Shown here one piece after another: positions 21,948-22,708 of a DNA stretch of 64,000 nt. A program made the translations under genes and the position numbers. Source of the DNA: Eledone cirrhosa (lineage: Eukaryota). Position 1 is the stretch's first letter. Each line of letters begins with the position of its first letter. Location: positions 270,444,001 through 270,508,000 of the forward strand of contig OZ024740.1 in assembly GCA_964016885.1 (NCBI GenBank). Direction: 5' to 3'. The notes below the pieces were generated by a model. It was not told where the DNA came from and did not search any database. It was given only the letters and a program-made list of their open reading frames with translations.

Positions 21948-22708
21948 CTAAAAATTTTTCTGATCTGCTGCTGCCATCTGTATCTCGTCGGCATGTGCGT
22001 GCCTTCTCCTTGTTGGTGCGGCACGCGAGACATCAGCATACTTCTGGAGCGGCTTATTTCGGCTTTGGCTGGGGCATGTTGCGCGAGTATGATGGGCATA
22101 GTTCGTTTGAGACCTAGGGTGGGCGAATCTGCATCCCATCCCCGTCTCTCCATACCAGCATGTCCCATTCTTAAAAAGCTTGCACATTACTTGGGGTTTT
22201 TTGCTCCCAGTGTCTCGGTGCTTTCTGTTCTTCCTTTGAACAGTTGTCCACTGGTCCCTCTGCGCTTGGTTCTCCTTCGGAAGGTGATTTCGCTTTTCAC
22301 CTTTGCCCTTAGCTTGTTGGTTGCCCGGCCTGCCCTCCTTGCCTGTGGCGGAGGGTATATCATTTTCTTTCAGGTCCGTGCTTGTGCTCTCCTCCTTTTC
22401 CTTTTCTTTTTCCTCTTCCTTTTCCCTCTCCTTCTCCTCATCCCTCCCTTCGGTTTTCTCCTCCCTGAGGACACGGCTTAGCATCGCCATATGTGCGCTA
22501 TGAGGAAATACGCCTTCTCAATTTCTTTTCTCTTTCTCTCTATCTGTGCCAGGGTCCTCAGAAACCCATGGCTCTTCAGGTTCTCCGCCATCTTTTTGCT
22601 TGGTGGAGACCCATCAGCCATGGTCCACCCCTTGATCAAAACCGCTAGTTCCATCTTTGACCAGTTTCGTTGACTCCTGATTTCACCTTTTTCCTGCATG
22701 CAGTCCAT
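21948..22708 (-). pseudogene. LINE B ORF1: trihelix Myb/SANT-like domain, charged linker, CCCH finger; frameshift near 22485
   Basis: NWSKMELAVLIKGW..KKMAENLKSHGFLRTLAQIERKRKEIEKAY; CKLFKNGTCWYGETGMGCRFAH. Confidence 0.72.

What the first reader, a model, noticed from the sequence alone, without database searches (positions are those of the whole stretch)
21948..22708. LINE B ORF1 carries a trihelix Myb/SANT-like DNA-binding domain plus a CCCH finger
Seen: WSKMELAVLIKGW..MAENLKSHGFLRTLAQIERKRKEIEKAY fits, by eye, the W-x3-E-x3-L...GF-x-RT-x2-Q-x3-K pattern of GT-1/Myb-SANT-like (Myb_DNA-bind_4) domains. It is followed by a charged linker and C-x7-C-x8-C-x3-H. Known: CR1/L2-group ORF1s usually carry PHD, RRM-like or esterase domains. 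Inference: a dsDNA-binding helix-turn-helix in ORF1 could tether the RNP to TA microsatellites and explain the (TA)n flanks of an APE-type LINE.
Basis: partly seen in the sequence, partly recalled or inferred. Interest (0 to 1): 0.75.

Follow-up and report, generated by a model that had tools for sequence, protein, structure and literature searches.

The report
Myb-domain ORF1 in TA-targeting octopus LINEs
A young family of jumping genes (LINEs) in what is likely an octopus genome has replaced the usual PHD module of its first protein with a predicted Myb-type DNA-binding domain and lands almost only in TA repeats; the domain likely sharpens this aim but does not create it, because LINEs without it also favour TA repeats.

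Summary
The window copy of LINE B is broken, but 16 of 29 other copies encode an intact 313-317 aa ORF1: Myb/SANT-like domain, charged linker, CCCH finger, C-terminal helix. B alone scores under Pfam's cut-off for Myb_DNA-bind_4. Related octopus families A and D pass it, AlphaFold gives a confident three-helix domain, and the best fold matches are Myb/SANT proteins (Z 6-7.4, modest). The CCCH finger is clade-wide; relatives carry a helical+PHD module where B carries Myb. Myb-type ORF1 occurs in two non-sister RT lineages (AU p=0.0002). TA targeting is real: 40/40 full-length and 30/36 3'-selected B copies have (TA)4 at the 5' junction; background is 6.7%. A same-clade PHD family in this genome scores 7/22, which favours a Myb contribution. 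An ORF1-less RTE scores 27/35, so Myb is not needed for TA preference. Best reading: endonuclease and tail pairing set a baseline TA bias, and the Myb domain likely tightens it. DNA binding is untested. I found no such ORF1 architecture in the papers searched; Repbase was not available. New variant of a known kind.

The parts
18742..23644 (-). LINE B element, near full length (about 12 nt short at the 5' end); young multi-copy family
   Evidence: (601 candidates, 40 scored, 95-98% identity)
22709..23644 (-). 5' UTR: AT-rich part, then (CT)n-rich part
   Evidence: shared by other copies
22713..22740 (-). Splice-acceptor-like polypyrimidine tract plus CAG; the AG ends 4 nt before the ORF1 ATG
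   Evidence: sequence; copy L090 is joined to a foreign donor-ended sequence exactly here
21771..22708 (-). ORF1 (315 aa in intact copies; three small deletions in this copy)
22499..22672 (-). Myb/SANT (trihelix-type) domain core, ORF1 aa 13-70
22185..22495 (-). E/K-rich helix extension and disordered linker
   Evidence: helix to aa 107, then pLDDT <50
22119..22184 (-). CCCH zinc finger C-x7-C-x8-C-x3-H
21890..22003 (-). Conserved C-terminal helix of ORF1 (aa ~236-273; coordinates approximate)
18818..21790 (-). ORF2: APE endonuclease + RT + C-terminal region; overlaps the ORF1 end in another frame, no AUG before APE motif I; broken near 19530-19590 in this copy
18742..18760 (-). 3' tail of short tandem GTAAAAGA-type units ending in GTA
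18665..18743 (.). (TA)n-rich target flank, 3' side
23642..24875 (.). (TA)n-rich target flank, 5' side
12046..13208 (-). ORF1 of LINE A (second family in the window): Myb-like N-terminus, polyQ, two CCCH fingers; frameshifted in this copy

Best explanation
LINE B is a young APE-RT LINE, likely of the CR1 group, whose ORF1 carries a predicted Myb/SANT domain in place of the helical+PHD module of its relatives; this domain likely tethers the RNA-protein particle to AT-rich DNA and so tightens a TA bias that the endonuclease and 3' tail likely set on their own. Shown: the ORF1 architecture; purifying selection on it; insertion next to (TA)n on both sides; PHD-type relatives sharing the CCCH finger; Myb-type ORF1 in two non-sister RT lineages; lower TA rates in the PHD family and high TA rates in an ORF1-less RTE. 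Inferred: the CCCH finger binds the element RNA; the APE domain nicks TpA-rich DNA and the tail (ending in GTA) pairs with the nicked end; the Myb domain binds DNA and adds stringency; the domain was captured from a host Myb_DNA-bind_4 exon and then exchanged between lineages.
For: Domain identity: AF2 helices 18-30, 38-46, 53-96, pLDDT about 90 in the core. VIA top rows are ARR1 (Z 7.4), LUX (7.2), GT-1 (7.0, rmsd 2.9, 59 aligned), SNAPc, PHR2, Zeste and TRF1. 17 of 24 genome matches over the PF13837 cut-off are LINE ORF1s of families D and A. A aligns to the B-type profile at prob 91.5, E 8.7e-7; D scores E about 1e-9 to 1e-11. Helix 3 has invariant R51 and near-invariant Q55 and K59 across 14 sequences. 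pN/pS is 0.14 between B subfamilies (6 synonymous, 3 non-synonymous). Targeting, (TA)4 within 30 nt of the junction: B 5' 30/36, 3' 35/37, full-length 40/40; A 5' 24/30, 3' 12/12 ends found; PHD family C 5' 7/22, 3' 10/29; background 6.7%. B vs C p=1.6e-4 (5') and 3e-7 (3'). The two flanks of one copy share their satellite variant (similarity 0.49 vs 0.25, p=5e-6). Tree: B groups with C and PHD-CCCH relatives (100/99); A+B monophyly rejected, p-AU 0.0002.
Against: The ORF1-less RTE reaches 27/35 (5') and 23/36 (3'); B vs RTE at 5' p=0.56. Only one within-genome Myb-versus-PHD contrast exists, and B and C also differ in endonuclease (36% identity) and tail. B itself is under the Pfam cut-off, Foldseek gave no E<=0.001 hit with homeodomains first, and all VIA Z-scores are under 8. 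The third tryptophan of the recalled Myb pattern is replaced (R in B, L in A), so a protein- or histone-binding SANT role remains open.
Confidence: 0.5

Rival explanations
1. The Myb/SANT domain is real but plays no part in site choice. It binds proteins or histone tails, or helps oligomerisation or nuclear entry, while the ORF2 endonuclease and tail pairing alone set TA specificity.
For: ORF1-less RTE is strongly TA-biased; PHD family C is about 5-fold enriched without Myb; SANT domains (MTA1, CoREST, RSC, DMAP1) match within about 1-2 Z units of the top rows; SART1 passages ascribe initiation to RNA-target annealing (PMC7265360).
Against: Both Myb-bearing RT lineages reach 80-100% while the PHD sister of B reaches 32-34%; basic helix 3 is conserved.
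Confidence: 0.36
2. The Myb domain binds the element's own 5' UTR or promoter and regulates its transcription, rather than the target.
For: Families A and D carry an internal (TA)5-7 tract about 110 nt upstream of the ORF1 ATG.
Against: B's 5' UTR has only (TA)3-4 runs; it does not explain the B-versus-C difference.
Confidence: 0.09
3. The TA flanks arise after insertion (grown from the tail, or left by selection), so there is no targeting to explain.
For: The genome is TA-rich: 6.7% background, 23.5% in this window by a looser criterion.
Against: 5' junctions, which the tail cannot make, are TA in 40/40 full-length copies, 32/40 ending exactly in TATA; both flanks share satellite variants; the equally young family C is mostly outside TA.
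Confidence: 0.05

Closest known systems
CR1/L2-lineage LINE ORF1 types I-V (Metcalfe and Casane 2014, PMC4120745)
   Same: Two-ORF APE-RT LINE with a modular, exchangeable ORF1; PHD-bearing types are common and relatives here have PHD.
   Different: Table 1 lists PHD, RRM, CCHC, Tnp22, esterase, zf/lz and coiled coil. 'myb', 'sant' and 'ccch' occur 0 times in the main text.
PHD + tandem-CCCH ORF1 LINEs (family C in this genome, L371; metagenome loci L243, L254, L257; proteins P0015, P0019)
   Same: Same RT clade (99/99 and 100/100), homologous CCCH finger (hhalign E 9.5e-9), FL-type C-terminal helix, short tandem 3' tail, ORF2 overlapping without AUG.
   Different: N-terminal module is helical+PHD, not Myb; three CCCH-type fingers rather than one (B) or two (A); much weaker TA bias.
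TRAS telomeric LINEs of silkworm
   Same: APE-type LINE with a Myb domain proposed to help target a simple repeat (PMC5537684, one passage).
   Different: The Myb is in Pol/ORF2, in cis with the endonuclease, and the target is telomeric; here it is in ORF1 and the target is (TA)n.
HeT-A/TART ORF1p of Drosophila
   Same: An ORF1 protein that determines where the particle goes (PMC4700185 passage).
   Different: Gag-like, no Myb named in that paper, chromosome-end target.
R2 retrotransposons (recalled)
   Same: Myb domain binds target DNA.
   Different: Single ORF with a restriction-like endonuclease; not checked here beyond search listings.
Myb_DNA-bind_4 proteins: GT-1 trihelix, Zeste, host MSANTD-like exons (L463, L464); Harbinger ORF1 (recalled)
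   Same: Fold and profile; of 7 non-LINE matches only L463 and L464 hit the LINE profile (E 8.5e-6 and 3.6e-4 among 24).
   Different: The LINE domain has a short loop after helix 1, lacks the third tryptophan, and is fused to CCCH.

Membership tests
Myb_DNA-bind_4 (PF13837) | Score over the curated cut-off (27 bits) for family B itself | tested here: not met
   19.9 and 16.9 bits
Myb_DNA-bind_4 (PF13837) | Score over the cut-off for homologous LINE ORF1s linked to B by profile | tested here: met
   L476 31 bits, L482 28.8 bits; 17 of 24 genome matches are LINE ORF1s; links to B
Myb/SANT fold | Three-helix helix-turn-helix bundle matching solved Myb/SANT domains | tested here: met
   AF2 pLDDT about 90; top VIA rows Myb/SANT, Z 6-7.4. 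Z under 8 alone is modest, and Foldseek had no significant hit
Myb/SANT fold | Three regularly spaced tryptophans (recalled pattern) | tested here: not met
   First W and a W at the end of helix 1 are conserved; the third position is R/K in B-type and L in A/D; host L463/L464 have M there too
DNA-binding Myb (versus protein-binding SANT) | Sequence-specific dsDNA binding by helix 3 | not testable with these tools
   Only indirect: conserved R51/Q55/K59 and 13 basic vs 6 acidic residues in aa 13-80
CCCH zinc finger | C-C-C-H ligand set, conserved in relatives | tested here: met
   C-x7-C-x8-C-x3-H; conserved; Pfam zf-CCCH only E 0.045-0.11, under cut-off; best PDB sequence hits include Muscleblind-like fingers, E 0.016-0.047
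CCCH zinc finger | Zinc and RNA binding | not testable with these tools
   needs biochemistry
CR1-group (Jockey superfamily) LINE | ORF2 with APE endonuclease and RT; ORF1 upstream; short tandem-repeat tail; 5' truncations | tested here: met
CR1-group (Jockey superfamily) LINE | RT placed among named reference clades (CR1, L2, Daphne, Kiri, Crack) | not tested
   No Repbase or RTclass1 references in the tools; the trees hold unnamed relatives and RTE only
Sequence-specific LINE (TRAS/SART/R1 type) | Near-exclusive insertion into one repeat | tested here: inconclusive
   83-100% TA vs 6.7% background, but other LINEs of the genome share the bias

The most novel reading that the evidence does not exclude
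Octopus CR1-group LINEs captured a host Myb/trihelix exon into ORF1 and passed it between two RT lineages. ORF1p, not ORF2p, now reads (TA)n DNA directly and steers insertion: a natural ORF1-encoded, portable DNA-targeting module for an APE LINE.
Probability: 0.3. Interest if true: 0.8.

Novelty: new variant of a known kind. Interest (0 to 1): 0.58.

Why it matters
ORF1 proteins are regarded as RNA-binding chaperones, and target choice in APE LINEs is usually ascribed to the endonuclease and 3' RNA pairing. Here one genome holds young Myb-type and PHD-type sister families with very different TA stringency, plus an ORF1-less control. That makes the open question, whether ORF1 helps choose the site, directly testable by domain swap. 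A DNA-binding ORF1 would also be a swappable targeting handle for retrotransposon-based insertion tools. Even if the tether fails, Myb+CCCH and PHD+CCCH are ORF1 architectures missing from the classification read here.

Tried and rejected
Foldseek against PDB gave no E<=0.001 hit for either model. Profile search of PDB sequences found no Myb, only CCCH fingers and weak S8 hits; A's N-terminus gave only TnsA at E 0.014, judged chance. The protein atlas gave no result. Homology between the Myb domain and the helical domain before PHD in relatives was not found: hhalign aligned only the CCCH, and the Myb profile had no hit in 80 metagenome loci. A search for longer Myb homologs (651-2000 aa) found none, which is weak evidence. 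A shared 5' motif as proof of an A-B swap was rejected because family C has it too. 5' junction counts from ORF1-selected B loci (64/83) were set aside, since junction calls fail in the CT-rich UTR and in older subfamilies. Absence of (TA)5 in 22 non-octopus relative contigs was not used as support: it is confounded with host and assembly. The search with A's 3' end returned nothing; A ends were read from fetched stretches instead. Expression: no RNA holder listed. The wider context of L463/L464 (Harbinger or host gene) and the 3' ends of family D were not examined. Earlier findings: none. No complex prediction was run.

Full report
Setting. The window lies in a 3.0 Gb genome. The closest named ORF1 homologs are Octopus vulgaris and O. 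sinensis predicted proteins, so the host is likely an octopus. LINE B runs on the minus strand from about 23644 to 18742, between two (TA)n arrays. ORF2 has APE and RT domains. A search with ORF1 DNA gave 601 candidates; the 40 scored are 95-100% identical.

The observation. The motif and the C-x7-C-x8-C-x3-H finger are present. The window copy lacks 1, 1 and 8 nt relative to 29 other copies (same gaps against public contigs). ORF1 ends at 21771.

Is it a Myb/SANT domain? For B, Pfam gives Myb_DNA-bind_4 at E 0.001-0.008, under the cut-off. A scan of 1.84 billion representatives gave 20 hits. Twelve of them align over the N-terminal domain with a conserved W..E...W...L...R...Q...K pattern. AlphaFold gives three helices at pLDDT about 90. 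Foldseek found nothing significant, with homeodomains first and GT-1 at rank 16. The exhaustive VIA search ranked Myb/SANT-type domains on top: ARR1 7.4, LUX 7.2, GT-1 7.0, SNAPc 6.8, Zeste 6.6, TRF1 6.5; all are under Z 8. The strongest evidence is transitive. LINE A in the same window has a homologous N-terminus (hhalign prob 91.5; Pfam E 3.4e-4). A genome search with PF13837 returned 24 matches over the cut-off, of which 16 are ORF1s of a further family D and 1 is an A copy. Rescanned, L476 scores 31 bits and L482 28.8. Between young and older B subfamilies the domain shows 6 synonymous and 3 non-synonymous differences, pN/pS 0.14; counts are small and the rest of ORF1 is also constrained (0.16-0.39). 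Of the 7 non-LINE matches, only two host-like exons (L463, L464) hit the LINE profile, which makes them a candidate donor class. No donor test was run.

Where it came from. One metagenome scan kept the best 80 of 536 RT relatives; 36 with enough upstream DNA were read for ORF1. The closest ones carry helical+PHD+tandem CCCH ORF1s (L243, L254, L257), or CCCH where only the 3' part is held (L244, L245, L248). More distant ones carry PHD without CCCH. None of the 80 matched the Myb profile. The two ORF1 types share only the CCCH by profile comparison. The host genome holds a young PHD+CCCH family too (C). In a 777-column ORF2 tree of 19 rows (family D left out for lack of aligned sequence), B falls with C and PHD-CCCH relatives (100/99) and A falls outside. 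A+B monophyly is rejected (p-AU 0.0002, LG+G4). A 48-row RT tree under a mixture model agrees (48 of 85 rows used). So the Myb module was likely exchanged between lineages or gained twice; repeated loss is not excluded.

Targeting. Criterion: (TA)4 or (AT)4 within 30 nt of the junction, distinct junctions only; loci were chosen by match score, not by flank. Background is 6.7% of 79,760 windows from 20 arbitrary 10-kb stretches. B, 3'-selected: 5' 30/36 (two rearranged copies counted as misses), 3' 35/37. Full-length B: 40/40, with 32 ending in TATA. A: 5' 24/30 and 3' 12/12 ends found in 20 stretches. D: 5 of 5 full-length 5' ends among 16 loci, by eye. C: 5' 7/22 and 3' 10/29; ORF1-selected 6/20 and 8/19. 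RTE, a single ORF with APE, RT and PHD, about 330 nt of 5' UTR and no Myb hit: 5' 27/35 and 3' 23/36. Fisher tests: B vs C 1.6e-4 and 3e-7; RTE vs C 1e-3 and 0.025; B vs RTE 0.56 and 0.0013. The two flanks of a B copy resemble each other more than those of other copies (10 of 35 rank first; p 5e-6), so the arrays are targets, not tails. All four families examined prefer TA. The two Myb-bearing lineages are the most stringent, and the PHD sister the least.

Mechanism. A baseline TA bias without any ORF1 points to the APE nick and to tail pairing: tails end in GTA (B), TAT (A), AT (C, RTE). The extra stringency tracks with Myb in this clade, and Myb occupies the slot of a PHD module, so a tether is the simplest role. 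But it rests on one within-genome contrast, confounded by endonuclease and tail differences. I give 0.5 to 'Myb sharpens', 0.36 to 'Myb irrelevant to site choice', and 0.3 to the strong form in which it reads (TA)n directly.

Literature. Ten searches were run. None listed a paper whose title or abstract start points to a Myb domain in a LINE ORF1, and the search for LINE + ORF1 + Myb_DNA-bind + retrotransposon gave 0 papers. PMC4120745: term passages and two sections with Table 1 read; 0 occurrences of myb, sant, ccch. Passages only: PMC5203782 (0 myb; a LysR-type HTH_1 ORF1 in an algal L1), PMC13343379 (0 myb, 0 ccch), PMC9115989 (0 myb; single-ORF octopus RTE), PMC8557442 (Naiad PLEs prefer (TA)n), PMC7265360, PMC4700185, PMC5537684 (TRAS Myb in Pol), PMC2868851 (an engineered TRF1-Myb/TRAS1 endonuclease fusion). 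PMC13282606: first third read; it lists 13 recently active CR1 families in O. vulgaris. R2 and Harbinger Myb domains are recalled. No supplements were read; Repbase and the O. vulgaris repeat library may already hold these families.

Side finding. B's 5' UTR ends in a polypyrimidine tract and CAG 4 nt before the ATG. Of 42 distinct upstream contexts, one (L090) has a foreign sequence of about 113 nt joined exactly after an AG at this point, behind a (TA)n array. Its first 92 nt match one other genomic place, where they end at a GTAAGT donor; the last 21 nt were not traced. This looks like a retrocopy of a host transcript spliced into ORF1 (n=1).

Verdict. The domain call and the TA targeting are confirmed; the causal link is plausible, partly supported and untested. 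New variant of a known kind; interest 0.58.

Noticed in passing
window 22713-22740 (-); L090:1384-1500; L486:1501-1600: Splice-acceptor-like signal before the ORF1 ATG. One copy appears to be a retrocopy of a host exon (ending at a GTAAGT donor) spliced, through a 21-nt untraced piece, into this acceptor and inserted in (TA)n.
   Followed up: partly
window 9400-13557 (-): LINE A: second family of the clade with a Myb-like N-terminus, polyQ and two CCCH fingers; RT 45% identical to B; also TA-flanked. More A fragments at 33833-34780 and 50204-51545.
   Followed up: yes
L466-L484 (16 loci): Family D, related to A (about 56% in the Myb domain); passes the Pfam Myb_DNA-bind_4 cut-off. A and D carry an internal (TA)5-7 tract in the 5' UTR.
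   Followed up: partly
L371, L380: Family C: young helical+PHD+tandem-CCCH ORF1 LINE with a (GAAAT)n tail and weak TA bias. PHD+CCCH ORF1s also occur in marine metagenome LINEs and are absent from the ORF1 table read.
   Followed up: yes
window 29076-30135 and 53539-54721; L220: Very young single-ORF RTE with a PHD finger after the RT and a (GAT)n tail; mostly TA-flanked.
   Followed up: yes
window 21771-21790; L011, L125, L371: ORF2 overlaps the ORF1 end in another frame with no AUG before APE motif I in A, B and C, suggesting frameshifting or non-AUG initiation.
   Followed up: partly
one search matches of 291 bp: 28 of 150 matches share one score and a 9-nt longer N-terminal region: probably a very recent B subfamily.
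   Followed up: no
L463, L464 (C24, about 35 kb apart): Two host-like Myb_DNA-bind_4 exons, the non-LINE matches closest to the LINE Myb profile; possible donor class.
   Followed up: partly
window 36047-45491 and 46312-49801: Tandem and inverted long repeats with RT-like ORFs (RVT_1 E 2e-4 at 37684-40770), resembling Penelope-like elements, also among TA arrays.
   Followed up: no
L006, L004/L038: B copies with an inverted internal segment, as expected from twin priming.
   Followed up: no
window 3107-4663 (+): 5'-truncated B-related copy, about 90% identical to the window element.
   Followed up: no
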